Shown: piece by piece, positions 50,501 to 64,000 of the stretch | Numbering within the stretch: position 1 is the stretch's first letter | How the letters are laid out: every line of letters begins with the position of its first letter | IMG/VR virus record: IMGVR_UViG_3300042557_001040 | Coordinates: 1-64,000 of that record | Reading direction: 5' to 3' (one strand) | Source: a virus | DNA length: 64,000 nucleotides | Translations under genes and position numbers: made by a program | Notes under the pieces: generated by a model | The model's database searches: none | What the model was told of the DNA's origin: nothing | Seen by the model: only the letters and a program-made list of their open reading frames with translations

Positions 50501-53500
50501 GATGTTGCATTTCTATGTTTAGGATTTGCTCTTAATTGAGAATCATCTATTTTTAAATAGTTTTTAATAGCATAGTCAGCATACTCTTCTCTAGACATTT
50601 TAGATAAATCTACACCTTCTGCTTTGGCAATTTTAGCTAACTCATAAGATGCACTCCAACCGAATAGTTTTTTTCTTCTTTCTATATCAGCTTTAGCATC
50701 TGTAACAACAGGAGCTACATCAGGTTTTAATCTACCTTCTTTTATGTATTCATTAAACTGTTCTTTACTCCATACTCCTTTAGACTTATTTTTTGTATTT
50801 TCAAACTGGATATCTCCTTTCTCACTAAATCCTCTAATTACATAGTTTTGTCCAGAGTCAGAGGTAAATGTATCACCAACTTTTGGAGTTGTAGAAACAG
50901 GAGCTCCTTCTGTTGGGGTTACTGTAGGTTTTTCTGCAGTCTCATCTAATTTATCAGCAACAACTTTGGCCTCTTCTTCTGTAGCATACCCTTTGGCTAC
51001 AGTGGCCCCCGTAGGACTAACCACCGTAAATGTTTCATCTTCTTTTACTACAACATGCTTTTTTTCTTCCTTATCTACATCAGCAGCTTTATAAACTTCA
51101 TCAATATGATCTTTTTTAAATAATTCACTAACTTCTTTATGAGCAGAAATCATTGAATTAATTACCAAGTTCATATTATAAGGATCAGCAAGTAAATTTA
51201 CAGCATCTACATATGCTTTATTATCTTTATTAAGACGAATGTAATCTATGATGTTTATAAAGTTTGCATCTACATCTTCTTTAGATACAACAGCCTTATT
51301 CTTAGACCTTTCATTATAAAGATTTATAAGATCAGCATAGCTCTCATAAGCTCTTTTTTCAGCAGCAGGAGAATAAGACTCATCAGAATTATCAACTATA
51401 TCCTGGTAAGAGCTTTCCCATTTTTTTGCTAAGGCAAGTTCTTTTTTCTTTTGTTTTAATATTTCTTTTAAATCAGGAGTGAGCGTGTCCGTAGATTCAT
51501 AGTTTTTAATCTCTGCTTCAAGATTCTTTACATGATCATTAAGTGCTTCTTCACTGCCCATTTTAGTGAGCACTTCTAAACTTGAAGCACCAATATTTTT
51601 ATTTTTAGAAATCTCTGTTTGTAAAGAAGCAGCCCTTATAACAGCTTGTTTTGCTTTATGAACATTAGTAGCAAGTATCTCTATAGCATCTTCTAGTGCT
51701 TTCTTTGATATCTTTGCTTGCGCATATTCTTCAGGGGTATTATATTTATATAACTCAGGAAGCACCTTATCACCATACTTATCTTTTAAATTTTCATAAG
51801 TGGTGTAATATTCATCCATTTGATTTGCAATGTTTTCCATAAAGGATTTTACATTGCCTCTATTTTTTTCTGTAGCATCAATTCCATATGCATCTTTAAA
51901 TTCCTCATCTGTCATGTTAGAACCAGCTCTTTTAATAGTGTCTCTAACAGTTTCAAACATGTTTAATTTAATAGCACTACTTACAGTTTTTGCAAAAGCA
52001 GAATCCTTTGCATTATAAAAAACATATTTATTATGATTTTTAGCTGCCTCATCCATTGTCTCAGCAGCTTTATTATTTATCTTAACATTTGCAATCCACT
52101 CTTTTTTAAATTGTGTGGGATCTGCATATAGAGAATTAACAAGAGCAATGCTTTCCTTTGCTCTTTCTTTTCTTGTTAAATAATCAGGATCTTCTTTTTT
52201 CTTTCTACTCTCTTCTATAGACTGATTAACCTTACTAATAATTTTAGTGCCAGGAGATATTAATGCACCAGTTAACGCGCCCATTAAGAATGTTCGCATA
52301 CCTTCAGAGCTGGTAATAGGATTTTCTATACTGTCTATAATGCGTTGCATCTTTCCACTATGCCCCTGTTTACCATGATAAAGATCATAGTAATAGCCGC
52401 TTAAACCTTTATTTGAAGCATCCTGTATAAGTTCTTGAACACCTTCCAATCCTTCTATTCTGGTGAGCCCCTTTCCTAACATTTTAGTAGCTTCCCAACC
52501 TGCTTTTGTTTTTCCAAAATCTTGAGCAATACTTCTTACAGCACCTAATTCTCCAAAGAACCAGCTTTTTGAATATGCTTTAGTCAAATCTTTTCCTGCT
52601 ACCTTACCTGTCACTTGGAATGCTTCCTCTGCAAGGGGTGCCGCTGCTTCATTAAAAATGTTTCTAGTGCGACTAAAACTTTTGAACATGTTATTAAACT
52701 GTAATCTATTCATTACAGAAATAACACCTACGTTTGTCCAAAAATTGTCATGAGAGGCATCTTCTGCCTTTTTATTTATTTTTTCAAGGTCGTCTCCATC
52801 TGGATTTTTTCCATTGGCTTCTATATATTCATTTACAAGTTTATCTCTTAATTCTTTAAATGTACTAGCCGCTTCAAATATTGATTCAGAACGTGCCATG
52901 TTAAATTCACTAAGTGCACGTTTTACCCCACCTAGAGTAGTCATTGCTAATTGTCCATACCCTGCGCCAGCTTTACCAAGCTTATAAAGATCTTGAAATC
53001 CACTATATAAAGGAACAATAGTTCTAGCAGCATTATTGAATGCATTAGTGACTCTTGCAGAACTAGTTACAATTTCTGTAGCTTTGTTAACATCATTAAC
53101 AATTTCACCTAATGTTGTAGCAGTTTTTACACCTCTTGCAATATTTAATCCTTTTAAACCTGCACCAACTATATTTCCAAGACCTGCTGTAAGATATGTT
53201 TCTAAAGCAAATTGTGCCATGGCACCTACAGTAAATCCAGCTTGCTGAAACATATTACCAAAGAACTGACGATTAAAATATCCATCTTTAGACTCCGCTG
53301 TATCAAATATTGCATATTTATTAAAGATGTCTTCCTGTTCTTTAGCTATATCATATCTCTCTTCAGGGGTTCCCATTAGTTTGGTAGAATCCCATGTAGA
53401 CAAAGCTTGAGCCATTCTTGCCCATCCTTTCCATCCTTCAGCAAACGTGTTTACAGCAATTTCACCAAATCCACCAAGTGCTTTTCCAATAGTATCTCCC

Positions 53501-53970
53501 CAAGTCATAGCTCTGCCATATCTATATTCTTGTTCAGCACCTAAACTAGGAATATATCCAAATGTTTTAAAATCATCTGATTGAACATATCTTTCAAAAT
53601 CCTCTCCTTTACCAACACTTAATGGTTGGCTTATTGCAGAATAAGTTGGAGCACCATTGATTGCTTCAGAAAGCTTTTGTGTATTTTTCTGAGGATCAAA
53701 ATAAAAAGGAGAAACATTCCCCCCACTTCCTTCCAGTCCAGAAGGGTAGTTATTTAAAAGATTTTTTGTAGCATCTAAGTAAGCATTTGTTTCATTGATC
53801 AAATCAGTGATGCTTTTTCCACCTACTGTTTTATAGGGAAAACGTGACTCTATAGATGCTTCATCCATTAAGTCTTTATTTACAGTATCTGCCTTTCTCT
53901 CGTAGTAAGAAAAACCTAAAGGAATGTCAGGCAAACCTATCCCTAACTTTGCTGGTTCTGGAGGATTCAT
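38581..53970 (-). CDS. Giant virion-packaged DNA-dependent RNA polymerase (crAss-like), with zincin HExxH domain
   Basis: RIPSQ and GADFDIDK (DFDID at 42322-42336), MTDNAK; HEAFH at 46939-46953 with downstream EEYMAD. Confidence 0.92.
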   Translation of the reverse strand: MNPPEPAKLGIGLPDIPLGFSYYERKADTVNKDLMDEASIESRFPYKTVGGKSITDLINETNAYLDATKNLLNNYPSGLEGSGGNVSPFYFDPQKNTQKLSEAINGAPTYSAISQPLSVGKGEDFERYVQSDDFKTFGYIPSLGAEQEYRYGRAMTWGDTIGKALGGFGEIAVNTFAEGWKGWARMAQALSTWDSTKLMGTPEERYDIAKEQEDIFNKYAIFDTAESKDGYFNRQFFGNMFQQAGFTVGAMAQFALETYLTAGLGNIVGAGLKGLNIARGVKTATTLGEIVNDVNKATEIVTSSARVTNAFNNAARTIVPLYSGFQDLYKLGKAGAGYGQLAMTTLGGVKRALSEFNMARSESIFEAASTFKELRDKLVNEYIEANGKNPDGDDLEKINKKAEDASHDNFWTNVGVISVMNRLQFNNMFKSFSRTRNIFNEAAAPLAEEAFQVTGKVAGKDLTKAYSKSWFFGELGAVRSIAQDFGKTKAGWEATKMLGKGLTRIEGLEGVQELIQDASNKGLSGYYYDLYHGKQGHSGKMQRIIDSIENPITSSEGMRTFLMGALTGALISPGTKIISKVNQSIEESRKKKEDPDYLTRKERAKESIALVNSLYADPTQFKKEWIANVKINNKAAETMDEAAKNHNKYVFYNAKDSAFAKTVSSAIKLNMFETVRDTIKRAGSNMTDEEFKDAYGIDATEKNRGNVKSFMENIANQMDEYYTTYENLKDKYGDKVLPELYKYNTPEEYAQAKISKKALEDAIEILATNVHKAKQAVIRAASLQTEISKNKNIGASSLEVLTKMGSEEALNDHVKNLEAEIKNYESTDTLTPDLKEILKQKKKELALAKKWESSYQDIVDNSDESYSPAAEKRAYESYADLINLYNERSKNKAVVSKEDVDANFINIIDYIRLNKDNKAYVDAVNLLADPYNMNLVINSMISAHKEVSELFKKDHIDEVYKAADVDKEEKKHVVVKEDETFTVVSPTGATVAKGYATEEEAKVVADKLDETAEKPTVTPTEGAPVSTTPKVGDTFTSDSGQNYVIRGFSEKGDIQFENTKNKSKGVWSKEQFNEYIKEGRLKPDVAPVVTDAKADIERRKKLFGWSASYELAKIAKAEGVDLSKMSREEYADYAIKNYLKIDDSQLRANPKHRNATSVQEVLDMVKADRASLSQTAKDAFESFYNAMLSLVNKPQIERYLAKNVRLLSGTKDSNSWLFFSINNGTNDKESVTHKSYFSLKNLNDFSPEMFKDFMIELQKRGYNGGVKIFQDLEVQGPALSDQVVMHGYSEADAKLALQVAKFFYGDKILESSYGKDEIIDGKSKSYSQILSDKIQREIDSKNVDAELTALEGAKPTDAAKTDRIIEAKFAEQETQFYIEVRGEKKDFLLTWSRNSNKPTLWGEKQPDGTYKPTLEYPSEKDVQDLVDKYVPKNLLSLINKWTDASKLPAGEVLDAQDKIAREIETELAALKKEKTPTGKDNHDILELPSKKRKLTPPTLKKGEVLVDSGKDGLFIISSNGEYEVAKSERNEETVALTYSTKEQALAARDAIIAKDTADFKKDRSYYPFAGTEIRAGLILVDNRTGKQFVVDTKGGPFYAKADEEKNNPLIKLLLLRNRVRQYGDAVIVSQKDFSNYTIKEKVEKYDTGEPVDKDVFRLYRTNELSGIYPHRKQGETEAEAQARMDDFLKKTNANDIKANTTIRIKQNTTIASSKEAGGKDKKTNPNLIQYSEKYQIQIVYKGEPIGYLRNYDTLRYITNGGVNVPMSDLTKNQFRSIFDLKGRGIEKQMLDFKNSFENSKKVYVALSSLAKPGQEIEISKEQLDKILSFEIGAGEFDFVPKGTGVSFEDLPNKTINGFYYILDRAKRYGSGYTFSNTENVITNAFGADRRKIEEEVKQVKNERDATQQLGRYVAVIKMDNGRIRFVELNTDVLEEEKFNDFIKQINERAKETKEKNLQETLTDKKEIVYQRKKVDFNEKLNSELAANLFISVPIEKKGMYIDFSVSDTGNLELTFYNMFEGKEIKRRKIRLYGSKLTDPVNIKDIDDLISKINSRIEEHDKAVIDQRDAIGFKLTRENFRQGTPDVSGYDDIKKLKTNLSEKMVKNIPLSVKASFSLPAPDIKTGVQTKGVAPAPAQSMQNNAGVPIDENLRARFLKEMGIGASPSVQEKEETPVEKTKLEETGLSPAQQIRDNIKKLEAEREIEAQKILEEKVKAGMRSGEALRLSNDEAVDLFKDRINAEKAKLNELRNSNRNMAPKVVNKPTFDATSVVNIDQFKKYVGRILGDIVSVEDMDLLATNLKNGNITVGRFLTYLQKLQNGKTQVRGRIEVGENSPFKYHEAFHAVFRLMLTDKEINKFLAYAKLEVKKELAKEGKTLASEIKAMRELHTIYADMTDAELENRYYEEYMADKFDEWKMNQDSKKILPGIRGLFQKIWDFIKGLFGKFTSNELTGLFREIDRGKYKNSNIKDNRFTKPDALSINEPALKAIKIGEDYVDDENGDIIPIDKYLPQQEGDQIASTIASMFHVRALNTETGKYNKKEILNGIIDDFLELYNPRGSRKEFYYDEQTKLMDIDPAQAKAYMNKLDQKFNIFYRKENRETLMEAVDVHLNIMGYQQELEDDEFTTTEEEFGTRVTTDNWKETHSIGGFGSLSKFLRQYIASTSYVIDRDEFGNTEMVNGEPLIQSVNANLVYGGILKAVANITDQKKFINRLLYLRDNNTETGKFLNKFFDEVGLVIDPNTGDFDITNPKQATLFQMVVKGFQQYTVDYIFMNKDIRNKGRVTRLMLANRMGAAKTQFTQWQNAYIHQFETPVLALKSEEERREFAKEKSLSFQELLSAHDPGVYFSDERLDDLSQDLSNRLKEDLGISLSPLYIKFSIAASKQPDLRTENQRRLAESYSEVGPMDLNGLKAIVKSIQALENPFAKNIDSLNDENMPITGEEDGEEEADSLGEGGNISRLNELAKGNAVFDETVSGTSYRNAEGELVYAHQLPTFHLVKINSLNDIDELNKIKLDDFLEQNHLLSSEDFKSLLGNLRVQRIEGMKSSILKENETGELIEDKTIQANQNEGITYGSFSDREFLISLLELYQYNKEHRGENGNRFMTSNHLIRVIEASNTGDTIALPVNKVVTSTTSGKVSLSQEAINIINKEVVREFNRIKKVRAEIKSGIYPDGEIQGYHYAVDGDGRRTDKKKPRGLKFYKMANMLGTELADELEQDSLDDAFDIASKNTKINSRIKEYWEKQIEDFVKLANDLGVVTVSKSEEGNEEEIQNNLVDDFLRIGFTKKENGKDVIDERRNDLLNIKPGNLRHNLGQILINDYINTLSINQILYGDEAKAFKDEIDIIKRARGANGSGPSLYSVVTSPELGITEAFTKSYMLTFTSPKFKANYAGGLKNKADAQSYQTVKSMRYTLHGLGQLTPAIAKILDKLEAGQELTEKEIFGSGGLKDMEAMFNSKKLVYFDGLQYIKTSTVMLTKEFTSMKVNGKWVAIPGSEELHELRERMEKFEKDNNTVVFAGDRESSKGIKRNIFDHSLGFQNAKDENFVKQDTNYWRLQLVNPSNKIQITDPSQAKQIILSEQEDSTPVTFMGRSTKEDGSQLTIGDIKKMYLSDVDQRVTNNYTRSRDEIFNIDSAYSELGKSMDQGKISPQLQKFQKRAVETLRSTGADSQLIDFFSLGEDGKPKYNLNNNITLDKYTQLFLAYFSKGVMSEKTPGHSVALMSNYGKQVVKIFTGRYDEEGNPIGTVVDERVIKQNPNRYIKNAKRWNNSIDRKFEQMKKGDIYVDDLRHNVPEYDKNGKIIGRYTEFIMPAHYAEYFNLKPGEPIPDHIAKMFGVRIPSQAKHSFVALRLVGFMPAYYGSTAIFPHELIEISGADFDIDKLYMHIYDTYVKDGQRFPYGTETSKEGKFEEYVRWNANNNKAFRDVLQELKETNPIYQELSKKYKEYKKLTKDLDEFRIFESVYFSEELGGKITADERQAIIDMGKKWVNEFKDLVKKLDGVEQKLIAQALGSLKLPSNVLDYAKSKKELNNGVLNNRILEQKLLMLTNEHVISGGSRSIAFEVASLTALTNLLDPNVAGNLIDLLSTENENGQKVLPTEIENILTEGGVDVDSIIGKYKAFKNNKEGSRNIGAAVNSMLTYAILNNFKINLRDTFKDAKGKKVKMYKIKINGHTFDSYSHSNSYNAATGKYDGEDRITNIISTLVSAMTDNAKERLAARLGLNMEALGYVSNMVAQGVPLKSSILLMLQPAVREYFELTKIASNNIKTNEESKIYKSQVAKKLFEKYKKLAGDDYVKEDLTDDIMVSNIKNNGSSAIYQASVLEDFIGISNQTKYFSDVAQVLKLVKGLGTSWEDYDGINNKIEKLGLRNQNDDAFEKFIPEGRKTPPPFDLRQVFMGYDESKQSHYISKWIKIADQINDLSKSMFLERTSVFKRIENIVKDNLSVRASLKDKFNVDLKRDLISYLSIKAYRKFLADRGRAGTLSTMTNALIYDEGAIAKGDKFSDIVDVIRTIRQKLPNNYIAKRFLNVISTTIVNAKGEAGLNPKNKDGFNKLESNTWAKLNEYQIEKLRDSFIEIYQSDIDFDGNGRNGRDMANALFNYLLVKDGGQFRSNSFIKFIPNFMFTDLMQSTGIANDVLKLNMVTTKNIDEEYKKVFGLTANDLFNEFMHIYTRHVGNGYYVRSMTLFAEPKFKDVGNKNVDGFEPKSVVIDGDKIKIDIFNGARIKEKQKAFTEEEESEITWMDDADYYTMLAEETEKFSQLDEEGKKEWIKKEEEAAKAKADSFKYSPDEKKRFAKNMDSLRAKGFYTNKKGEVVFPYIIKQSIKPEGKKYFENTFFVLKSVTKAQKQPKGSPKRMIQPGETVASGVKAVYQKIERKGSSKTFKAGEVFDPIPDTAKLPRYRKLTTNPSSYNPYYERAFSDPEKEEMWMINRGFVKPGETSVTQKKEIATAATKNVTGTPKEILAREGITFTFDTASKSFKFVGDVWDAIPDDAKKTVKTPGQLVYMLGYDITSSAPQIKGNETLGETPIVDENLTEEKAKELGVTDTALRNRFLAALGMGDNEKPSQASKNVPAVGSKEEKLGITDMEKRKEFERLMGFGSIKSDDTKLDDDNPLNDRCAQP

Positions 53971-57056: not shown

Positions 57057-57111
57057 ATAATAGAATTTAAGAAAAAATCTAGAAAGTTTAAAATTAAACT
57101 TTAGAAGTTTA
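57057..57111 (-). promoter_or_regulatory. Putative late promoter with upstream TAAAC-N7-GTTTA palindrome
   Basis: TTAAATTCTATT core; TAAACTTTAGAAGTTTA at 57095-57111. Confidence 0.45.
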
Positions 57112-60100
57112 TCTTAGAAAAGGATTGTGATAAGCATAGCCCCCATATGCATATGATAGTTGTTGATCTGCATCTGCAACAGGGATTCTTGTGTTATTTT
57201 TTGAAGGATTGTAAGGATAAGTAGTGGCATAACCAGATCTTCTTCCTATCATATTATTCAGTATTGTTTGAGCGGCTCTATGCTTTTCTTCAGGAGTTCC
57301 TTCTATATTCTGAAGAATTTGATTATAGTTGTCTATATAAGCTTTTGCATTTTCAGGAGTGCTGCCACTAAGTTCTTGTCTTTTCATGGCTTCAAAAGCT
57401 GCTCTTCCACCATACGGATTAAACGTTAAAAGACCTGTTTTAGGATTAATAAAATAATAAGGACTTTCAGTGATGTTCATATTGTACAGTTTTGCAGCAT
57501 TTGTCATACCTGTACCAAGGGCTTGTGTAAGAGCAGTATCTGCCAATCTTTTTTCTCTTCTGTACTTGTCATTAATATTCCACCTATTTTCCCTATTTGT
57601 ATTAACTACATTTGCATTATAAGCTGCCGCATTATTCATAATGTTAGCTAAGTTTTCTTGATACCTGTTATATACACCAAGATTTCTTGTGTTAACTCCA
57701 TTAATAATATTAGCTACATTTTCTCCAGTTTGTCCTTGTAAATAAGAAAGATTTGCAGCTAAACTTTGACCAGGAAGAGATTCTTGCAATGCTCTTGCTG
57801 CAGTATTAACACCCTGATAGACATTTTGAACTGCTCCTTTCCAATCTTCCAAAGTAACATCTGGAACATATGGAGTGGCTTTTACATAGTCAAATGGTTC
57901 TTTTTTAATACCACTTCTATTAAGTAGTGCGTTTAAAGCTGATAGCTTATCTTCAGGAAGCCACCCATAGGGAGGATTCATAAAAGGAACATTTGTTTGT
58001 ACAGGAGATACTTTAGGGGCTTCTTCTTTTTTATCAGAAGGTTTTTCTTCGATTTTACCAGTTCCACCACCTGTAGGTGTAGTGCTAGGCTCATCTCCTG
58101 TATATACATATTCAGGTTCTGTTCCAGGGGTTGTTACAACTTTTCCTTTAGGATCATATAAATCCGTTGTATATGTTTTTCCATTCCAAACAAAAGTACC
58201 AAGACCTTGATTTCTAGCATTAGCAAAAGCTCTATTAAAACTTGAGCTCCCTCTGCTAGGCGCAGCACCTGCAGCAATTGTTTGAGATGTGCCAGCTACC
58301 CCTGGTTTTTCATAAAGATCTTTTATAGGAGTGGGATTGTAACCACCAGGGACACCAGATGCTCTAGGAAAAAACTTAGCTCTAATTTTTCTTTTATTGT
58401 AATCAAATTCTTTTTCAGGAGGAAACTGACTATTCTGAGTGCCTTGATATTTAGGAAGACCACCATATCTCATTTCTTCTTGTGGCATTTCTTCTTGAGA
58501 CTGTTGTTGAGGTTGAGGAGATTCTTGACTCATGCCTCCTCCCATAATATTTTCAGCAACTTTGGGAATACCCTGAGGAAATCCTTTCATAGATTCTTGT
58601 ACAACAGAAAGATAGGCAAGCTTTTCCTCATAGTTGTCTATCATTTTTTTAGCCGTGTTCTTACTTATATTGTCAGAATAAGGATCTTGAAGAACAGCTT
58701 TATATTTATTTACATCATACTTTTTAGCTATTTCAGCTGGAGTGTAACCTTTCTTAGAAGGAGACATTCCAAACATCTTGAGAACATTAGGATCTTTAAT
58801 TATCATCTTCTTTGTATCAGAATAAATAAAGGTTCCTTCTGGTACATTAAGTGGTGTGCCACCTTGAGTGTGACGTTTGCCTCCAATCTTCATGTGCTCA
58901 TTCATACCATCTCCATCCATATCTCCATAAGCAGTTTCTCCTTTCTCAGCTTCTATGTTAGCTTCTTCTCTAGGAACTTCTTGTATTGTATTTGAAGCAT
59001 TTTCATAAGTGTTGTCTGTCATCTTAGAGTAGGTGTTTCTTTGACCAAGGTCAAAACCATATCCAGATTGACCACCATATGCCATTTCTTGATTTGGAGT
59101 GCCAACAATTCTCACTCTACTCATAGACGGTGTTTCTTCAGAATCAGGTGTTTCAAGGATGCGTATTTTCATATCTTCATCTGTTTCTCCCCCCTCTTCA
59201 GAAGCAGGAAGGTTGTTTTTTATTCTAAAATATTTATCTTGAGCTTTCTTAAGATATCCTCCCCAAGTTATTTCATTTCCATAATCCTCTCTTGGAATCT
59301 TATTTAGAACTCCAGTTTTACCCTTTAAGAAGTTATTTGTAAAAGTGGGATCATACCAAGCTCCAAATATTAAAGAACCATATTTAGGAAGCAAGTCATT
59401 AACTAATGATTTAGCAACCTGTCTTTCAAAATTTGGGTCAGTATTATAAGCATTTTCAAACTCATTCCAACTCATGGATTGTTTAAAGTGCTTATTAAAT
59501 AAACCTTTACGAGTACCTTCTACAATACCCCATCTTCCCATAGCAGTGGCTCTTTGACCTTCAGGACCAACAAGTTGGGTTCTTCCACCAGTTTTTGATT
59601 TTTCTGTAGCAGCTAATGTATCTAATACAGCATCTGCATCCATTTGATTGGCATCTAATACAGTGATTTCAGAAGGATCAATTATAGTATTTCTATTATA
59701 CTTTCTTCCTTTAGGGGCAAACTTGTGAGAACTTGCTTCAGAAGATACTGGACCAGAAGAATAAGACTGAGGAACAGGTGCTTTTTGTTGAACAACAGGC
59801 ACATTAAAAAAATCAGCAGGAAGAGAAATAGGTGTACTTGGTAAATAAAGATCCCCTGTTTGACGAGGAACCTGAAGACCATCTTCTGCATAACTTATTC
59901 TAGGATGGAATTGGTTAGTCATCTGACCTTGATTCACTGTATACTGAAGATCAGGATTTTGCCAACCCTCATTTACAGTCCACATCCCCTTGTTTCTTTT
60001 TTCAACAAGTTGATTATCGGGAAGCATGTCTCTTCTATACTTTAAATCAAATTGCCTATCAACGTCTTTATTATTAAAGAAATTAGAAGCAGTTTCTGCT

Positions 60101-61110
60101 AAATTAAGTCCTGCATTTAAAGCATAATTATATGCTCCTAACTTTTGAACAAATGTTTTATTTTTAAAAGGAGAAGTTGTGTCAAAATTTATATTTGAAA
60201 TCGGTTCAGGCATTCCATAAGTCCCTGTTATAGGATTTCTAATAAAACCTTCTCCTAAATCAGTTTTTACTTGAGGAGACGCAGGAATATTTGCTGAAGA
60301 AATCGGTTCACATTTTCCTGTAAAAGGATTTTTTTGTTGACCATCTGGACAAGTTTTTCCTAAAGATTGTGAAACACCTTGCTGAAAAGCAGAATTCATA
60401 CCTTTAAAAGTAGGAGACATTTCAGTATTAAATGTGGGTTTTCCTGCTATACCAACAATACTATTTTGATATTGTGCTTTTGGCAACCCCTTTCCTGTTA
60501 TGCGCACTCTAACAGCTTCAGGTTCACCACCATATGCTTTTTGTTCAGATTTTCCTGGAGACACCCAATCAAGAAAAGGAACAACATTATTGTATCCTGC
60601 TTCATATAATCTTTGACCTCTATTATATTGACCAAAAGGATTTAAAAAAAGTCCTGGGGTATGCAAACCAACTTTTTCTATACCTTTATTTAAAACTTTA
60701 GAAGGATAACGACCTGTTTTATCAACTGCCTGAAATACTTTTTTTCCAGCCAAATAAGGTACATCAATTAACTTAGCCCCCAAACCTTTAACACCTCCAA
60801 TAACTTTTGGAGATTTTCCAATTTTTGTAATTTTTCCATAAATAGGAATTGAACCAAGAACATTCCAAGCAAGACCTAAAGTGTTTAATGCCTTATTTTT
60901 CCAACCAGGTTCATTTATTAATTTTCTAGCAGAAGAAGTTACATAAGGAAGATTTGATAAACCGGTGGGATCAAAAAAAGAAATTAAATCATCTACATCA
61001 TCTGGTTCATGCATAGCAAATTTTGTTATAGGCAAACCTAGGATAGGACCTGTGCCATAAAGTCCTTTTTGAGCTTTGGGAAGATCTTTACCTGTAATGC
61101 GTATCTTCAT
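57109..61110 (-). CDS. Modular virion cargo protein (membrane hairpin, lysozyme-like domain, EAEKGE/HxxGG domain, FxWNGKxYTT module)
   Basis: Modules separated by xAYGG/MRYGG/LPKAQ motifs; LAATE...ATAMGRWGI...GAWY muramidase-like segment. Confidence 0.7.
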   Translation of the reverse strand: MKIRITGKDLPKAQKGLYGTGPILGLPITKFAMHEPDDVDDLISFFDPTGLSNLPYVTSSARKLINEPGWKNKALNTLGLAWNVLGSIPIYGKITKIGKSPKVIGGVKGLGAKLIDVPYLAGKKVFQAVDKTGRYPSKVLNKGIEKVGLHTPGLFLNPFGQYNRGQRLYEAGYNNVVPFLDWVSPGKSEQKAYGGEPEAVRVRITGKGLPKAQYQNSIVGIAGKPTFNTEMSPTFKGMNSAFQQGVSQSLGKTCPDGQQKNPFTGKCEPISSANIPASPQVKTDLGEGFIRNPITGTYGMPEPISNINFDTTSPFKNKTFVQKLGAYNYALNAGLNLAETASNFFNNKDVDRQFDLKYRRDMLPDNQLVEKRNKGMWTVNEGWQNPDLQYTVNQGQMTNQFHPRISYAEDGLQVPRQTGDLYLPSTPISLPADFFNVPVVQQKAPVPQSYSSGPVSSEASSHKFAPKGRKYNRNTIIDPSEITVLDANQMDADAVLDTLAATEKSKTGGRTQLVGPEGQRATAMGRWGIVEGTRKGLFNKHFKQSMSWNEFENAYNTDPNFERQVAKSLVNDLLPKYGSLIFGAWYDPTFTNNFLKGKTGVLNKIPREDYGNEITWGGYLKKAQDKYFRIKNNLPASEEGGETDEDMKIRILETPDSEETPSMSRVRIVGTPNQEMAYGGQSGYGFDLGQRNTYSKMTDNTYENASNTIQEVPREEANIEAEKGETAYGDMDGDGMNEHMKIGGKRHTQGGTPLNVPEGTFIYSDTKKMIIKDPNVLKMFGMSPSKKGYTPAEIAKKYDVNKYKAVLQDPYSDNISKNTAKKMIDNYEEKLAYLSVVQESMKGFPQGIPKVAENIMGGGMSQESPQPQQQSQEEMPQEEMRYGGLPKYQGTQNSQFPPEKEFDYNKRKIRAKFFPRASGVPGGYNPTPIKDLYEKPGVAGTSQTIAAGAAPSRGSSSFNRAFANARNQGLGTFVWNGKTYTTDLYDPKGKVVTTPGTEPEYVYTGDEPSTTPTGGGTGKIEEKPSDKKEEAPKVSPVQTNVPFMNPPYGWLPEDKLSALNALLNRSGIKKEPFDYVKATPYVPDVTLEDWKGAVQNVYQGVNTAARALQESLPGQSLAANLSYLQGQTGENVANIINGVNTRNLGVYNRYQENLANIMNNAAAYNANVVNTNRENRWNINDKYRREKRLADTALTQALGTGMTNAAKLYNMNITESPYYFINPKTGLLTFNPYGGRAAFEAMKRQELSGSTPENAKAYIDNYNQILQNIEGTPEEKHRAAQTILNNMIGRRSGYATTYPYNPSKNNTRIPVADADQQLSYAYGGYAYHNPFLR

Positions 61111-61117
61111 AAGTTTA

Positions 61118-62863
61118 TTAGATTACTTCAATTTTATAACCCATTTGCTTAAGTCTTTCCACTTCAGCTCTAGAAAGATCTCCTTCCCATCCCACTTCAT
61201 AATCTTCAACTCCACCTCCTTCAGCATATCCATACTGTGACATCATGTCTTCATTACCAGCAGCCTTAAACCTGCGCTCAGCTAACCACTGAGGCATTTG
61301 ACCACCTTGCGCCATACCCATACCATACATTGCTTTATTGGGTCTATCTACAGGTTGATTAAACAGTCTTGGTATTTCAGAATGATAACCACCATATGCA
61401 AATTGACCATATTCAGGAATATATGTTCCTCCCCATTGACCACCATCATCAAACCTTAGTTTACTAAAAAGTTTTGCTGCTTTTCCTAATCCTTTAAGTT
61501 TTCCCAATTGTTGAAGAAGCTCACTTCCTTTAAAAGCTTCTTTTATTCTAGAGCCAAGGCCCAAAGCCTCTGCAGCTTCTGCAGCTTGAACAGGAATAGT
61601 AGAAGGAGCAATGGGCAGTGGTTTTCCCCAACGGGCAGCTGCCGCTCTTTGAGCATTAATAGATCTCATAGCTGCTTTTTCTTCTTCTACAGCTTGCAAA
61701 GCTGCCCTCGCATCTCTATCAGCAGATAAAGATTGTGCAAGACGTTCTTCTCCTGCAGCTTCTTGGAGCATTCTATTTGTTCTTACAACATTTTCAGCAG
61801 TGCCTGGTTTTGTAAAAGCCAATGCATTTGGAATCTCAGCTTGATCTAAAGCTTTTAATATATCTTTCTGACGTTTTGGTAATTTTTTATACCACTCTGA
61901 AGTAGTTTTAAGATCTTCAAGACTTTTACCCTGCACTTCTTTCAGTAACTCTTTAAAACCTTTACTGTCTAAACCCATTTTTGTTGCCATTTCCAACATC
62001 CTATTATAGTTTAAACGAGAGCTGCCAGGCATCATCATACTTTTTAATCTTGCTAATTCTTGAGGACTTGTATTTTTTAAATATCTTTTTCCTAAAGCAT
62101 AAGCTGCCCCTAAACCCCCTATTCCTGTACCTGTTAACACTAAAGCAGAAGGATTTATTCCTCCTGAAGGACCTGTTTTTTTAGGGGTGGGTTTATTAGG
62201 AGAAGGTTTGGGAGTAGAAACAACATTACCACTACTGTCTATAGAAACTGTAGGAATTGAATCAGGAGAAGAAACAATAGGTGAAGGTGTCACAACAGGA
62301 GGAACAGAAACAGGGGCAACAGAAGATGAGTCTGAAGAAACAACTGTTGGGGGAATTATAGCTCCAGATGTAGTTGAAACACTACTTTTATATTCTGATA
62401 AAAGATTTGGATTATTAGCAATACTGTTTATTAATTTTTTATTTTGTTGTGCAGTGCCTCTATAGTTACTAATACCTGCCGCTTGTGCAAGTTTTTTTCT
62501 AAAACTATATCCTGATTGTTTTCCTTGAGCACCTAAAAAATCAACAACACTAACTCCTTCATATGGATTTATACTAAAATTAGGAGGAGGAGGTGGTGGC
62601 GCAACAGTATATGATGCTTGTGTGTAAGGAGCAGCTGCCATTTGTTGTGCGGCTGCTTGTTGATAAGGATTAGATTGAGTGACTGGTAACTGACTTAACC
62701 AATAATCCATTGCTTCTTGCCAACTTTCATAGTCGGGGTAGTCTTGTTCTTGGGGAGCACCATAACCACCACCATTTTGATACCAAAGTGGGCCTGAGTT
62801 TGTAGAACCTTGATAGTTGCCGCCATGTGCCATATAAGGCATGTAATCATAAAAACTGTACAT
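61118..62863 (-). CDS. Modular virion protein with DUF3597-like peptidoglycan-binding domain, Pro/Ser linker and TM segment
   Basis: SVVDFL...RKKLAQAAGISNYRGTAQQNKKL; six or more phi-x-x-GG motifs. Confidence 0.7.
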   Translation of the reverse strand: MYSFYDYMPYMAHGGNYQGSTNSGPLWYQNGGGYGAPQEQDYPDYESWQEAMDYWLSQLPVTQSNPYQQAAAQQMAAAPYTQASYTVAPPPPPPNFSINPYEGVSVVDFLGAQGKQSGYSFRKKLAQAAGISNYRGTAQQNKKLINSIANNPNLLSEYKSSVSTTSGAIIPPTVVSSDSSSVAPVSVPPVVTPSPIVSSPDSIPTVSIDSSGNVVSTPKPSPNKPTPKKTGPSGGINPSALVLTGTGIGGLGAAYALGKRYLKNTSPQELARLKSMMMPGSSRLNYNRMLEMATKMGLDSKGFKELLKEVQGKSLEDLKTTSEWYKKLPKRQKDILKALDQAEIPNALAFTKPGTAENVVRTNRMLQEAAGEERLAQSLSADRDARAALQAVEEEKAAMRSINAQRAAAARWGKPLPIAPSTIPVQAAEAAEALGLGSRIKEAFKGSELLQQLGKLKGLGKAAKLFSKLRFDDGGQWGGTYIPEYGQFAYGGYHSEIPRLFNQPVDRPNKAMYGMGMAQGGQMPQWLAERRFKAAGNEDMMSQYGYAEGGGVEDYEVGWEGDLSRAEVERLKQMGYKIEVI

Positions 62864-62901
62864 AAGAATTAGTTTTATGTGCTTTTAGAGAAGCACTATT
62901 T

Positions 62902-62968
62902 GTAATATAATTTAAGCTTTTTTGTTAACATTTTAAAATTTATTATTCATTTAAACTTTTAACGTTTA
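62902..62968 (-). promoter_or_regulatory. Putative late promoter with upstream TAAAC-N7-GTTTA palindrome
   Basis: TTAAATTATATT core at about 62904-62915; TAAACTTTTAACGTTTA at 62952-62968. Confidence 0.45.
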
Positions 62969-63999
62969 ACTCCTCCTTTCTTATAATAATATTGTAAGAG
63001 TGGTCCTCCTTTTTCAGGAAGTTGTGGTATGGATATATCTCCACCATTTCTTTTTTGTGGTTTAAATTTTGGGTTATTTGGATTAAAATCGTTAAAATCA
63101 TTTGTGTTCCATATTCTACCATACCAGGTATCATAATAATCACTATTAGGAACTCCGGGAGCAGGATTATTTATATTTTGATAATACCAATCTCTTCCTC
63201 TATTTAAAAATTGTCTACGAGTATTAGCAGGTAATTTATTTATTTCTGGAGAATATTGATTCCAAATTGCATCTAATTCTGGTTTTTTCTTTGCCCACTT
63301 TCCTGGCTCTTTATTCATATCTATATTAAAAGACCCTCTATTAGGAATACCCTCTTGCCCTTTAGACTTTAAATACTGATCTAACATGTAGATTCTAGGA
63401 TCACGTCCAGAATTGAATATAAAATCCATTGCTTCTGCTGATTCCATTGCACTAGCATTAGGCATAATTTTTTTAACTTCTGGATATATTTTATTCATTA
63501 ACATATTCATATACTTAGAATCAGCATACTCAGGAAGAGGTGCTCCACCTGGCCCTCCTCTTAGCTGTTCATAACTAAGTATTTTACCTGCTTGATGTCT
63601 TACACTATCTTGTGTAGTTAAATCCTTACCTGTTTGTGCTTTTGGTAATTTTAATGTAGATATATCTCCACCATTATTAAATGTAGGAACACCATATCCT
63701 TTGTTGTAATAGTATCTATTAGCTTGACCACCTTCAGCAAACTTAGATATACCACCACTGTATGAATTGCTATCTCTATCTCTTCTATTCTGTCTAATTA
63801 CAGCATCTAAGCTTAAAGGTTGTCTTGGGTTCACTGAACCACCATTTTTAAAATGATAGTTCAAACCTGCACTAAAAGAAGGTTGAAATTGATTTATCCC
63901 TGCAATAGGAACTCTAACATTTGTAATATTAGCTCCACCTGTAAAACCAAATCTATTGTTAAGTCTTAAATTTCCTTGTGCACCTGCTCCTAAAATGTT
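62959..63999 (-). CDS. Partial (5' end outside window) modular protein: beta-barrel-like terminal strands plus GH108-like lysozyme module
   Basis: The frame is open from 63864 to the window edge; MDFIFNSG...RDWYY...WYGRI resembles GH108/PG_binding_3; FSAGLNYHF beta-signal-like segment. Confidence 0.7.
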   Translation of the reverse strand, partial: NILGAGAQGNLRLNNRFGFTGGANITNVRVPIAGINQFQPSFSAGLNYHFKNGGSVNPRQPLSLDAVIRQNRRDRDSNSYSGGISKFAEGGQANRYYYNKGYGVPTFNNGGDISTLKLPKAQTGKDLTTQDSVRHQAGKILSYEQLRGGPGGAPLPEYADSKYMNMLMNKIYPEVKKIMPNASAMESAEAMDFIFNSGRDPRIYMLDQYLKSKGQEGIPNRGSFNIDMNKEPGKWAKKKPELDAIWNQYSPEINKLPANTRRQFLNRGRDWYYQNINNPAPGVPNSDYYDTWYGRIWNTNDFNDFNPNNPKFKPQKRNGGDISIPQLPEKGGPLLQYYYKKGGVKR

Positions 64000-64000
64000 T

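What the first reader, a model, noticed from the sequence alone, without database searches (positions are those of the whole stretch)
63838..63999. Outer-membrane beta-barrel C-terminus (BAM beta-signal) embedded mid-protein, ending on the FKNGG motif
Seen: the ORF called at 63864 is open to the window edge and reads ...NILGAGAQGNLRLNNRFGFTGGANITNVRVPIAGINQFQPSFSAGLNYHF-KNGG. These are amphipathic strands with alternating hydrophobic residues, ending GLNYHF. Established: outer-membrane barrels end in a G-phi-x-Y-x-F beta-signal whose terminal Phe is read by BamA. Here that Phe is also the first residue of the phi-x-x-GG motif. Inference: cleavage at or near the motif would release a barrel (or a BAM-binding decoy) with a near-native C-terminus, delivered from the virion together with a lysozyme module. 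It could act as an entry channel component, an exclusion factor or a BAM inhibitor.
Basis: partly seen in the sequence, partly recalled or inferred. Interest (0 to 1): 0.8.

Follow-up and report, generated by a model that had tools for sequence, protein, structure and literature searches.

The report
Four-strand membrane-barrel-like module in phage protein
A large modular phage protein carries a small conserved four-strand module whose end looks like the signal bacteria use to insert barrel proteins into their outer membrane, which hints, without proof, that the phage plants part of this protein in the host's outer membrane.

Summary
The quoted sequence is real. It lies on the minus strand in a 1046-aa ORF (genome 62959-66099) that runs 2.1 kb past the window edge. 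The beta-rich stretch is a discrete 86-aa module (aa 669-754), not the end of a full barrel. AlphaFold2 gives four long antiparallel strands (pLDDT 87.7). A profile search found it in 45 representative proteins. In the 43 module-bearing proteins of the collected set it occurs once each, at any position. 40 of 43 copies end F-x-x-G-G and 32 of 43 carry the strict G-x-x-aromatic-x-aromatic beta-signal consensus. That pattern occurs only 5 times at 2,073 other GG sites. A sister module in related proteins folds as a 10-strand meander. Its structural neighbours are all membrane barrels (KdgM, Z 14.0), and its last hairpin aligns with that of this module (hhalign 90%, E 1.5e-6). None of the 43 N-termini shows a signal peptide. 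Other relatives carry peptidoglycan hydrolase domains. Best reading (about 0.4): an outer-membrane-inserting unit of an ejected cargo protein, most like a trimeric-autotransporter anchor. Cleavage at GG, BAM involvement, virion packaging and the "lysozyme" label are untested or unconfirmed. This scan's earlier follow-ups reported 8-18-strand barrel-like cassettes in cargo proteins of other phage genomes. This would be a four-strand version.

The parts
62959..64000 (-). In-window part (aa 701-1046) of the 1046-aa modular ORF P0001. The ORF continues to genome position 66099, beyond the window.
   Evidence: 127 proteins at E<=1e-3, 120 listed, share its modules. Coverage by module is mapped.
63838..64000 (-). 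In-window part of the 86-aa beta module (aa 669-754; genome 63838-64095). Predicted strands: aa 686-697 (outside the window), 700-712, 717-730, 735-748.
   Evidence: AlphaFold2 on a 32-row alignment: pLDDT 87.7, four strands E19-30, E33-45, E50-63, E68-81 of the 87-aa model. Profile search: 45 hits. Column statistics.
63850..63867 (-). G-L-N-Y-H-F (aa 745-750), the beta-signal-like end of the last strand.
   Evidence: G 30 of 32, Y/F 29 of 30 and F 29 of 30 in alignment A2. Strict pattern in 32 of 43 module copies. Consensus GXX-Phi-X-Phi taken from PMC13067283.
63838..63849 (-). K-N-G-G (aa 751-754), the x-x-G-G seam that closes the module.
   Evidence: GG in 30 of 30 rows that reach these columns. 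40 of 43 copies end F-x-x-G-G. The sequence downstream differs between proteins.
63010..63657 (-). Its identity is not established.
   Evidence: Shared by 92 of the 119 other listed homologues. No Pfam family. No PDB hit with a 5-row profile. The Atlas gave only a 0.79 lead to DUF7841.

Best explanation
The stretch is the end of a self-contained 86-residue module (aa 669-754) of a 1046-residue, bead-on-a-string phage protein. The protein is probably packed in the virion and ejected into the host envelope. The module is an outer-membrane-type beta unit: four long amphipathic antiparallel strands, the last of which ends in the beta-signal consensus G-x-x-Y-x-F. I read it as a short version of the 8-18-strand barrel-like cassettes seen in related cargo proteins. 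Proposed mechanism (inferred): the protein has no signal peptide and is made in the cytoplasm. The module stays unfolded in the particle and during passage through the tail, as outer-membrane proteins do before they meet a membrane. Once in the periplasm or at the tail tip it folds into the host outer membrane. Four strands cannot close a barrel, so it would do this either by joining copies from several cargo molecules, as trimeric-autotransporter anchors do (3 x 4 strands), or by pairing its last strand with BamA. The result would anchor, or form the outer-membrane part of, the ejection conduit, next to cell-wall-active modules of the same protein family. Shown here: the module, its conservation, its predicted four-strand fold, the specificity of the motif, and the link to the barrel-type sister module. 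Inferred: virion packaging, membrane insertion, oligomer state, and any role of BAM.
For: (1) It is a discrete conserved module. There were 45 representative hits at E<=1e-3 and 34 at E<=1e-10. In the 43 module-bearing proteins of the collected set (177-2989 aa) it occurs once per protein, at relative positions 0.04-0.97. (2) AlphaFold2 gives pLDDT 87.7 and four strands of 12-14 residues. (3) G78, Y/F81 and F83 are present in 94-97% of rows. The last strand is strictly amphipathic, with aromatic residues at both ends, and four Gly columns are >=91% conserved. The ending fits GXX-Phi-X-Phi. (4) The full pattern is specific to beta modules: 32 of 43 copies against 5 of 2,073 other GG sites. (5) A sister module of about 170 aa in related proteins (P0068 and 7 homologues) has the same G-L-N-Y-R-F + x-Q-x-G-G ending. 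It folds as a 10-strand meander, pLDDT 79.8. All 50 listed structural neighbours are membrane barrels: KdgM Z 14.0, rmsd 3.2 A over 144 residues; VhGalP 13.0; AIDA-I 12.1; NanC 12.1; 56 chains at Z>=8. The Foldseek top hit is a designed 10-strand transmembrane barrel, E 3.1e-4. (6) hhalign of the two module alignments gives probability 90.2% and E 1.5e-6 over 37 columns, the last hairpin of each. (7) Close superpositions of the four-strand model include the Hia membrane anchor (rmsd 1.8 A over 57 residues, Z 6.2) and the AtaA anchor (1.9 A over 57, Z 5.9). (8) The printed N-termini of the 43 module proteins are hydrophilic with no signal-peptide-like stretch. P0001 has no 19-residue window with mean Kyte-Doolittle >=1.0. 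(9) Relatives that share P0001's modules carry SLT, Phage_lysozyme, Amidase_2 and LysM+YkuD domains, which suggests periplasmic action. (10) Gene order: a 1559-aa 'virion structural protein' (phrog_37948, 8.4e-65), then P0001, then 581-, 1333- and 1026-aa proteins, then a 5129-aa protein. Flavobacterium phage FPSV-S29 has the same order, and there both the large flanking protein and the giant protein are annotated structural. In crAss001 the cargo proteins gp45 and gp46 are expected to form the transmembrane channel and to pass partly unfolded (PMC10172136, passages read).
Against: Four strands cannot form a barrel alone, and nothing here shows an oligomer. The four-strand model's structural matches are all below the tool's noise mark of Z 8, and they include soluble proteins: methyltransferases, ssRNA-phage coat proteins and actin capping protein. 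There is no sequence match to any Pfam outer-membrane family, to any solved structure, or to any small stand-alone outer-membrane protein among the 45 hits. Strands 1-3 are less cleanly amphipathic than strand 4, and I could not inspect coordinates to check for a continuous hydrophobic face. The motif is internal, followed by 296 residues, whereas the canonical signal is C-terminal. The hhalign link covers only one hairpin and could be convergence. Virion packaging is inferred from gene order only. The FPSV-S29 proteins at the same position show no such modules, and P0001 has no match in 50,697 cultured-phage records. The identity of the 5129-aa protein was not confirmed (no PHROG hit).
Confidence: 0.4

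Rival explanations
1. The module is a soluble structural beta-sheet. It could be an oligomerisation, packing or docking element inside the capsid or tail, or a sheet that packs on a neighbouring module. On this reading, its resemblance to a beta-signal is a by-product of an amphipathic last strand that ends in the hydrophobic residue every GG seam prefers.
For: M, Y and F are enriched 2.6-3.1-fold at position -3 of the 2,073 other GG sites, so a hydrophobic residue there is partly a property of the linker. The four-strand model also matches soluble sheets at similar Z: DesVI methyltransferase Z 6.2, ssRNA-phage coat proteins Z 5-5.9. No outer-membrane family hit by sequence. In crAss001, short pieces of cargo protein gp45 bind the portal and the tail barrel, so docking modules exist in such proteins.
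Against: Only 25% of other GG sites have an aromatic residue at -3, against F in 40 of 43 module copies. The joint G-x-x-Ar-x-Ar pattern is nearly exclusive to beta modules. A lone four-strand sheet with one hydrophobic face is not a stable soluble domain. The sister module that shares the last hairpin is predicted to be a membrane-type barrel.
Confidence: 0.3
2. The module is a BAM-directed decoy or dock. Its last strand pairs with BamA strand 1 like a substrate, but the four-strand sheet cannot close. It therefore stays as a stalled hybrid barrel. This would either tether the cargo protein at BamA or block outer-membrane protein assembly, as host takeover or exclusion.
For: The consensus fits. 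Stalled EspP intermediates on BamA show exactly four resolved substrate strands, and a bulky fused domain jams BAM (PMC13067283, passages read). Exogenous proteins and peptides that mimic the beta-signal are known BAM inhibitors: darobactin (same passages), and Llp bacteriocins (bioRxiv 10.64898/2026.09.25.754295, only the start of the abstract seen in the listing).
Against: There is no evidence of any contact with BamA. The sister modules are predicted to be complete barrels, which fits insertion better than inhibition. The motif is internal. A phage gains little from blocking slow outer-membrane biogenesis at the moment of entry.
Confidence: 0.1
3. The GG seams are protease sites, and the module is cut out as a free peptide of about 86 aa. 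That peptide then acts on its own as a mini outer-membrane protein.
For: Modules are bounded by x-x-G-G or A-Q-x-G on both sides. GG density is 1.05-1.55 per 100 aa in the three neighbouring proteins against 0-0.5 in most other ORFs. Two homologues, P0016 and P0102, end naturally at ...NIF, where P0001 continues EIF-QVGG, so modules can terminate at the hydrophobic residue.
Against: No Peptidase_C39, S78 or C48 match in the record, which is 72% complete. There are no proteomic data. Cutting after GG would leave four extra residues after the Phe. An earlier follow-up on another genome also found no data on cutting (e1-6026511). Glycine pairs may simply be hinges between modules.
Confidence: 0.15

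Closest known systems
Membrane anchors of trimeric autotransporter adhesins (Hia, YadA, AtaA)
   Same: A unit of about 60-70 residues with four long antiparallel amphipathic strands that ends in an aromatic-x-aromatic motif. It cannot form a barrel alone, and three copies make a 12-strand barrel. The model superposes on Hia 1041-1098 at rmsd 1.8 A over 57 residues (Z 6.2) and on AtaA at 1.9 A over 57 (Z 5.9).
   Different: No Pfam YadA_anchor hit. No preceding helix in the model, whose N-terminal 18 residues are coil. It lies mid-protein rather than at the C-terminus, and there is no signal peptide. It is encoded by a phage in a cytoplasmically made protein. Z is below the tool's noise mark of 8. 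The terminal-motif and 3 x 4-strand facts about autotransporters are recalled, not from a call.
Small monomeric outer-membrane barrels (KdgM, NanC, VhGalP porins; autotransporter beta-domains AIDA-I, EspP, BrkA)
   Same: The sister module of related proteins matches these at Z 11-14 over 144-157 of 171 residues. It ends in the same G-L-N-Y-R-F as classical substrates of the barrel-assembly machine. Its last hairpin aligns with this module.
   Different: The window's module has 4 strands, not 10-12. There is no detectable sequence homology to these families. The module is embedded in large proteins that lack an export signal.
Ejection (cargo) proteins of short-tailed phages: T7 gp14, N4 gp52, crAss001 gp45/gp46
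   Same: Proteins encoded beside the tail genes and next to a giant virion protein. They are expected to leave the particle first, partly unfolded, and to build the outer-membrane end of the DNA conduit (PMC10172136; PMC13434306). Gene order is similar here.
   Different: The passages I read describe the N4 proteins (gp51, gp52) and the crAss001 cargo proteins as helical. That T7 gp14 is helical is recalled. P0001 shows no sequence match to any of the 50,697 cultured-phage records. A beta-barrel-type element in such a protein did not turn up in my three literature searches.
Beta-signal mimics that target BamA (darobactin; Llp bacteriocins)
   Same: Exogenous molecules that present a beta-signal-like strand to BamA strand 1 (listing only).
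   Different: Those are short peptides or C-terminal tails and act as inhibitors. Here the motif closes a four-strand sheet inside a 1046-aa protein, and no BamA contact is shown.

Membership tests
Bacterial outer-membrane beta-barrel protein (BAM substrate) | C-terminal strand with the beta-signal consensus G-x-x-aromatic-x-aromatic | tested here: met
   GLNYHF at aa 745-750. G 30/32, Y/F 29/30, F 29/30 in A2. Strict pattern in 32 of 43 copies. Consensus taken from PMC13067283.
Bacterial outer-membrane beta-barrel protein (BAM substrate) | The signal lies at the extreme C-terminus of the polypeptide | tested here: not met
   296 residues follow it. Across the 43 proteins the module sits at relative positions 0.04-0.97, and none of the printed ends stops at the Phe.
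Bacterial outer-membrane beta-barrel protein (BAM substrate) | A closed barrel of 8 or more strands in one chain | tested here: not met
   Four strands in the AlphaFold2 model. Upstream are unrelated modules. The sister module of other proteins has 10 strands.
Bacterial outer-membrane beta-barrel protein (BAM substrate) | N-terminal Sec signal peptide | tested here: not met
   The N-terminus MRKDSILQQYYYKK... is hydrophilic. No 19-residue window with mean Kyte-Doolittle >=1.0 anywhere in P0001. No dedicated signal-peptide predictor was available.
Bacterial outer-membrane beta-barrel protein (BAM substrate) | Match to a curated outer-membrane protein family model | tested here: not met
   Pfam scan of P0001 at E<=1: 0 families. 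Six relatives: none. The Atlas gave only chance-level leads (PagL, OMP_b-brl at 0.81-0.82).
Trimeric autotransporter membrane anchor (YadA_anchor) | Four-strand beta unit of about 60-70 residues | tested here: met
   Strands E19-30, E33-45, E50-63 and E68-81. Superposes on Hia and AtaA anchors at rmsd 1.8-1.9 A over 57 residues, but at Z 5.9-6.2, below the noise mark.
Trimeric autotransporter membrane anchor (YadA_anchor) | Match to the family's sequence model | tested here: not met
   No Pfam family at E<=1.
Trimeric autotransporter membrane anchor (YadA_anchor) | Preceding helix that fills the pore, and a C-terminal location | tested here: not met
   The N-terminal 18 residues of the model are coil. 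The module is internal.
Trimeric autotransporter membrane anchor (YadA_anchor) | Homotrimer forming a 12-strand barrel | not testable with these tools
   Needs an experimental oligomer state, or a multimer prediction with controls that gives an answer.
Crassvirus-type cargo (ejection) protein, like crAss001 gp45 | Gene placed between the large tail structural gene and the giant virion protein gene | tested here: met
   Order: 1559-aa structural protein (phrog_37948), P0001, 581 aa, 1333 aa, 1026 aa, 5129 aa. Same order in FPSV-S29, with both flanking giants annotated structural.
Crassvirus-type cargo (ejection) protein, like crAss001 gp45 | Sequence homology to a known cargo protein | tested here: not met
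   tblastn of P0001 against 50,697 phage records: no match at E<=1e-3. PHROGs: only one weak unnamed hit.
Crassvirus-type cargo (ejection) protein, like crAss001 gp45 | Detected in purified virions and lost on ejection | not testable with these tools
   Uncultured phage; no proteomic data.
Polyprotein processed at Gly-Gly sites | A cognate protease encoded by the virus | tested here: inconclusive
   Peptidase_C39, S78 and C48 models find nothing at E<=1. The record is only 72% complete, and other protease families were not tried.
Polyprotein processed at Gly-Gly sites | Mature termini at the seams | not testable with these tools
   Needs virion mass spectrometry.

The most novel reading that the evidence does not exclude
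Phages of this group inject cargo proteins that carry outer-membrane-protein modules. The host's own barrel-assembly machine, or spontaneous folding, then installs these modules in the host outer membrane from the periplasmic side. The four-strand module would be a split-barrel version. Either copies from several ejected molecules assemble into one composite barrel, as autotransporter anchors do, or the sheet stays zipped to BamA's open seam. Either way the phage would gain a beta-barrel gate or anchor for genome delivery. Outer-membrane protein biogenesis signals would then be used by a virus, at entry, on a protein that never saw the Sec pathway.
Probability: 0.2. Interest if true: 0.85.

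Novelty: new variant of a known kind. Interest (0 to 1): 0.62.

Why it matters
In the passages I read, the N4 and crAss001 ejection proteins are described as helical; that T7 gp14 is also helical is recalled. A beta-barrel-type element that stays unfolded in the particle and folds only on meeting the outer membrane would be a different and physically attractive solution for a protein that must thread a narrow tail. It would also be the first case I know of in which a virus borrows the bacterial beta-signal. The module is small (86 aa), conserved and easy to express, so the idea can be tested directly: membrane fractionation, heat modifiability, in vitro folding with or without BAM, and bilayer conductance. 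The module would also mark ejected cargo proteins in uncultured phages of Bacteroidota-like hosts. If the module proves soluble, the result is still useful, because it would show that the consensus G-x-x-aromatic-x-aromatic alone does not predict outer-membrane proteins.

Tried and rejected
Searches for close relatives that found nothing:
- tblastn of P0001 against cultured phages: no match.
- Pattern scans of IMG/VR with P0001 and with alignment A1: no confirmed locus.

Searches for a family or structure name that found nothing useful:
- Pfam on P0001 and on six relatives: no meaningful family.
- PHROGs on P0001: one weak unnamed hit.
- PDB sequence searches with P0001, with the module profile A2 (only 4 chance-level rows at E 0.26-1.2) and with the module-d profile A4: nothing.
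- ESM Atlas on the module: viral unnamed clusters at 0.91-0.92, and PagL/OMP_b-brl leads at a chance-level 0.81-0.82.
- ESM Atlas on module d: 0.79 to DUF7841 only.
- Foldseek on the four-strand model: no hit at E<=1e-3.

Multimer prediction: complex prediction with three copies of the module (alignment A2) returned 'no answer' (score 0.01 against a mark of 0.42, controls not run). This is no evidence either way about oligomerisation.

Other checks:
- Protease models C39, S78 and C48 on the own record: no match. Other protease families were not tried.
- PHROGs on the two halves of the 5129-aa protein: no family. I therefore could not confirm the first readers' 'giant RNA polymerase' label.
- PHROGs on ten further ORFs gave replication genes only (DNA polymerase, helicases, primase, exonucleases). 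No capsid, portal or terminase was found, so a crAss-like affiliation is not established here.
- The two FPSV-S29 proteins at the equivalent position show no GG-seam modules.
- No second copy of the module and no long barrel module exists elsewhere in this genome.

Rejected ideas:
- A type IX secretion C-terminal domain: recalled as a beta-sandwich, whereas the model is four long strands, and there was no Pfam hit.
- A full barrel continuing upstream: rejected.

Literature: three full-text searches listed no paper describing an outer-membrane-type barrel in a phage ejection or cargo protein. I read listings only, plus passages of PMC13434306, PMC10172136 and PMC13067283. Supplements were closed, so the crAss001 mass-spectrometry tables, which might show processed termini, were not seen.
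Full report
WHAT IS THERE. The window is bases 1-64000 of an 87,969-bp virus record that CheckV rates 72% complete. The 'ORF called at 63864' starts at an internal TTG, the Leu codon of GLNYHF. With the flanking DNA, the gene runs from genome 66099 down to 62959 and encodes 1046 residues, P0001. GLNYHF is aa 745-750 and KNGG is aa 751-754.

A MODULAR PROTEIN. A word-based search found 127 proteins at E<=1e-3, of which 120 were listed. Mapping their local alignments on P0001 shows separate blocks:
- aa ~20-190, shared by up to 27 proteins;
- aa ~575-655, shared by 68;
- aa ~660-760, shared by 5-6;
- aa ~820-1030, shared by 92.
The beta-rich stretch of the finding is therefore its own block. It begins just after F-Q-V-G-G and ends at F-K-N-G-G. 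The same block, with the same ending, appears in P0094 and P0048 in quite different neighbourhoods.

THE MODULE FAMILY. A three-sequence profile (A1) was scored against 1.84 billion representatives. It gave 45 proteins at E<=1e-3 and 34 at E<=1e-10. A local hmmsearch over the 163 proteins then collected finds one copy per protein. In the 43 proteins that carry the module (177-2989 aa), it sits anywhere from 4% to 97% of the length. Of these 43 copies:
- 40 end F-x-x-G-G and 41 end [FL]-x-x-G-G;
- 32 carry the strict G-x-x-aromatic-x-aromatic-x-x-G-G;
- 8 have variant spacing before the Phe (most a two-residue insertion), 1 has Leu for Phe, and 2 (P0146, P0148) diverge before the end.
The N-terminal edge, I-[ND]-L-[NH]-L-P-x-Y, is usually preceded by another x-x-G-G or A-Q-x-G seam. 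What follows the closing GG differs from protein to protein.

FOLD. AlphaFold2 on a 32-row alignment (A2) gives mean pLDDT 87.7 and four antiparallel strands of 12-14 residues, after 18 residues of coil. Column statistics show a strictly amphipathic last strand. F/W71, Y/F75, V/A/L77, M/L/V79, Y81 and F83 are hydrophobic, with P73 also conserved. K72, S74, N76, R/K80 and R/K82 are polar. Four glycine columns (37, 39, 54, 78) are conserved in at least 91% of rows. Strands 1-3 alternate less cleanly, and I could not inspect coordinates.

STRUCTURAL NEIGHBOURS OF THE FOUR-STRAND MODEL. Foldseek finds nothing at E<=1e-3. The exhaustive aligner gives Z 7.6-7.1 for four-strand subunits of gasdermin-type pores. 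It also gives tight superpositions on trimeric-autotransporter anchors: Hia at rmsd 1.8 A over 57 residues (Z 6.2) and AtaA at 1.9 A over 57 (Z 5.9). Similar Z values go to soluble sheets, and all lie under the tool's noise mark of 8. By itself the model says 'long four-strand meander' and no more.

IS THE ENDING A BETA-SIGNAL OR JUST THE LINKER? The published consensus is GXX-Phi-X-Phi at the C-terminus of outer-membrane proteins (PMC13067283, passages read), and GLNYHF fits it. I tabulated 2,073 GG sites outside beta modules in the 176 collected proteins. M, Y and F are enriched 2.6-3.1-fold at position -3, but only 25% of sites have an aromatic residue there. The full G-x-x-Ar-x-Ar-x-x-GG pattern occurs 5 times. 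In the phage's own genome the pattern occurs once.

A SISTER MODULE THAT LOOKS LIKE A REAL BARREL. P0068, a relative that shares blocks b and d with P0001, has a stretch of about 170 aa between A-Q-K-G and G-L-N-Y-R-F-M-Q-E-G. Seven homologues cover most or all of it, and five of them end in x-x-G-G or x-x-x-G-G. AlphaFold2 on these 7 rows gives pLDDT 79.8 and ten consecutive antiparallel strands. Foldseek's top hit is a designed 10-strand transmembrane barrel (E 3.1e-4), followed almost only by outer-membrane or organelle barrels (one WD40 row excepted). The exhaustive aligner gives:
- KdgM, Z 14.0 (rmsd 3.2 A over 144 of 171 residues);
- VhGalP, Z 13.0;
- AIDA-I, Z 12.1;
- NanC, Z 12.1;
- 56 chains at Z>=8, and all 50 listed rows are membrane barrels.
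A profile-profile comparison of the two module alignments aligns the last hairpin of each over 37 columns, with probability 90.2% and E 1.5e-6. No protein in the set carries both modules. The four-strand module therefore looks like a short relative, at least in its last hairpin, of a cassette predicted to have an outer-membrane-type barrel fold.

CONTEXT.
- The printed N-termini of the 43 module proteins are hydrophilic with no signal-peptide-like stretch, and many share a motif of the form S-I-L-Q-x-Y-Y-Y-x-K. A similar motif recurs at several C-termini, including that of P0001.
- P0001 has no 19-residue window with mean Kyte-Doolittle >=1.0.
- Relatives that share P0001's blocks carry SLT, Phage_lysozyme, Amidase_2 and LysM+YkuD domains, so the family acts on the cell wall.
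- P0001's own C-terminal block could not be named.
- The gene lies between a 1559-aa 'virion structural protein' (phrog_37948, E 8.4e-65) and proteins of 581, 1333, 1026 and 5129 aa. The 1559-aa protein is 25-28% identical to structural proteins of Cellulophaga phages phi17:2 and phi4:1, Flavobacterium FPSV phages, a gut phage and a Leptolyngbya phage.
- FPSV-S29 has the same gene order, with the flanking large protein and the giant protein annotated structural. Its two intervening proteins lack these modules.
- In crAss001, cargo proteins gp45 and gp46 are encoded in the same region as the RNA-polymerase-associated proteins. They are found in virions and are expected to pass partly unfolded and to form the transmembrane channel (PMC10172136, passages read).
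- In N4 the ejection proteins are predicted to be helical, and T7 gp14 is named the outer-membrane channel (PMC13434306, passages read).

READING. I commit, at about 0.4, to an outer-membrane-inserting beta unit of an ejected cargo protein. By analogy with autotransporter anchors it would assemble with other copies or on BamA. Its beta-signal-like end would act as the nucleating strand. Three rivals remain: a soluble packing or docking sheet (0.3), a free peptide released at the GG seams (0.15), and a BAM decoy or dock (0.1). Cleavage is not shown. Three protease families were absent from the incomplete record. Two homologues that end naturally at ...N-I-F, where P0001 continues E-I-F-Q-V-G-G, suggest only that a module can stop at the hydrophobic residue.

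RELATION TO EARLIER NOTES OF THIS SCAN. First-reader notes on this genome describe the GG / LPKAQxG punctuation (e1-6134788, e1-6134802). Follow-up agents on other genomes reported barrel-like cassettes of 8, 10, 12 and 18 strands in cargo proteins of crAss-like phages, ending just before GG seams (e1-6054000, e1-6028115, e1-6001822, e1-6114063, e1-5949405, e1-5938897, e1-5949416). One case had an unresolved fold (e1-6045639). I saw these notes only after my own folds. My 10-strand result on P0068 agrees with them independently. The new point here is the four-strand version and its distribution (45 representative clusters).

NOVELTY. My three full-text searches listed no paper on an outer-membrane-type barrel element in a phage ejection or cargo protein. 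I saw listings and the passages named above, and supplements were closed. I rate the finding a new variant of a known kind: a phage ejection protein, built here with a bacterial barrel-type element. Interest is 0.62, limited because membrane insertion, packaging and oligomer state are all inferred.

Noticed in passing
P0001 aa 575-655 (genome ~64135-64377, beyond the window) and 68 homologues: A block of about 75 aa beginning G-G-x-I-x-D-x-R-G-Q-W-A-H-P-G is 67-86% identical between otherwise unrelated large proteins. It lies within 140 aa upstream of the beta module in 6 of 43 proteins and directly before the 10-strand module in P0068. Its function is unknown.
   Followed up: partly
P0001 N-terminus (genome ~66040-66099) and C-terminus (window 62959-63030): The same short motif, L-Q-Q-Y-Y-Y-K-K, stands at both ends of P0001 (MRKDSILQQYYYKK... 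and ...GPLLQYYYKKGGVKR). It recurs at the termini of many homologues and may be a packaging or docking tag.
   Followed up: no
window 61118-62863 (-), 581-aa neighbour: It has a peptidoglycan-binding-like stretch at aa 101-157 (phrog_2307, E 4.8e-11). It also has a glycine-rich hydrophobic segment at about aa 240-258 with mean hydropathy 1.37, which may be a membrane helix.
   Followed up: partly
P0016 and P0102 (homologues), C-termini: Both proteins end exactly at ...G-K-M-T-G-P-N-I-F, the point where P0001 continues E-I-F-Q-V-G-G. The hydrophobic residue of a seam can therefore be a natural C-terminus.
   Followed up: no
window 57109-63999 and 11189-16150: GG dipeptides number 1.05-1.55 per 100 aa in the three neighbouring proteins, against 0-0.5 in most ORFs. 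The 1653-aa protein at 11189-16150 has 1.94 per 100, so GG density alone does not mark seams.
   Followed up: partly
window 38581-53970 (-), 5129-aa protein: Neither half matches any PHROG family at E<=1e-3. The 'giant RNA polymerase' label given by first readers is unconfirmed here. The positional counterpart in FPSV-S29 is annotated structural.
   Followed up: partly
P0152 and P0160 (hits): Two long proteins match only profile positions 42-71 of the module, in 21 and 8 repeated stretches. They may be repeat proteins built from a similar hairpin.
   Followed up: no
window 4885-30839 (+) and genome 73357-74556 (-): A replication module is present: helicases, primase, DNA polymerase (phrog_1252, E 2.4e-143) and exonucleases. 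No capsid, portal or terminase was found among the ten ORFs scanned. The head genes may lie in the missing 28% of the genome.
   Followed up: partly
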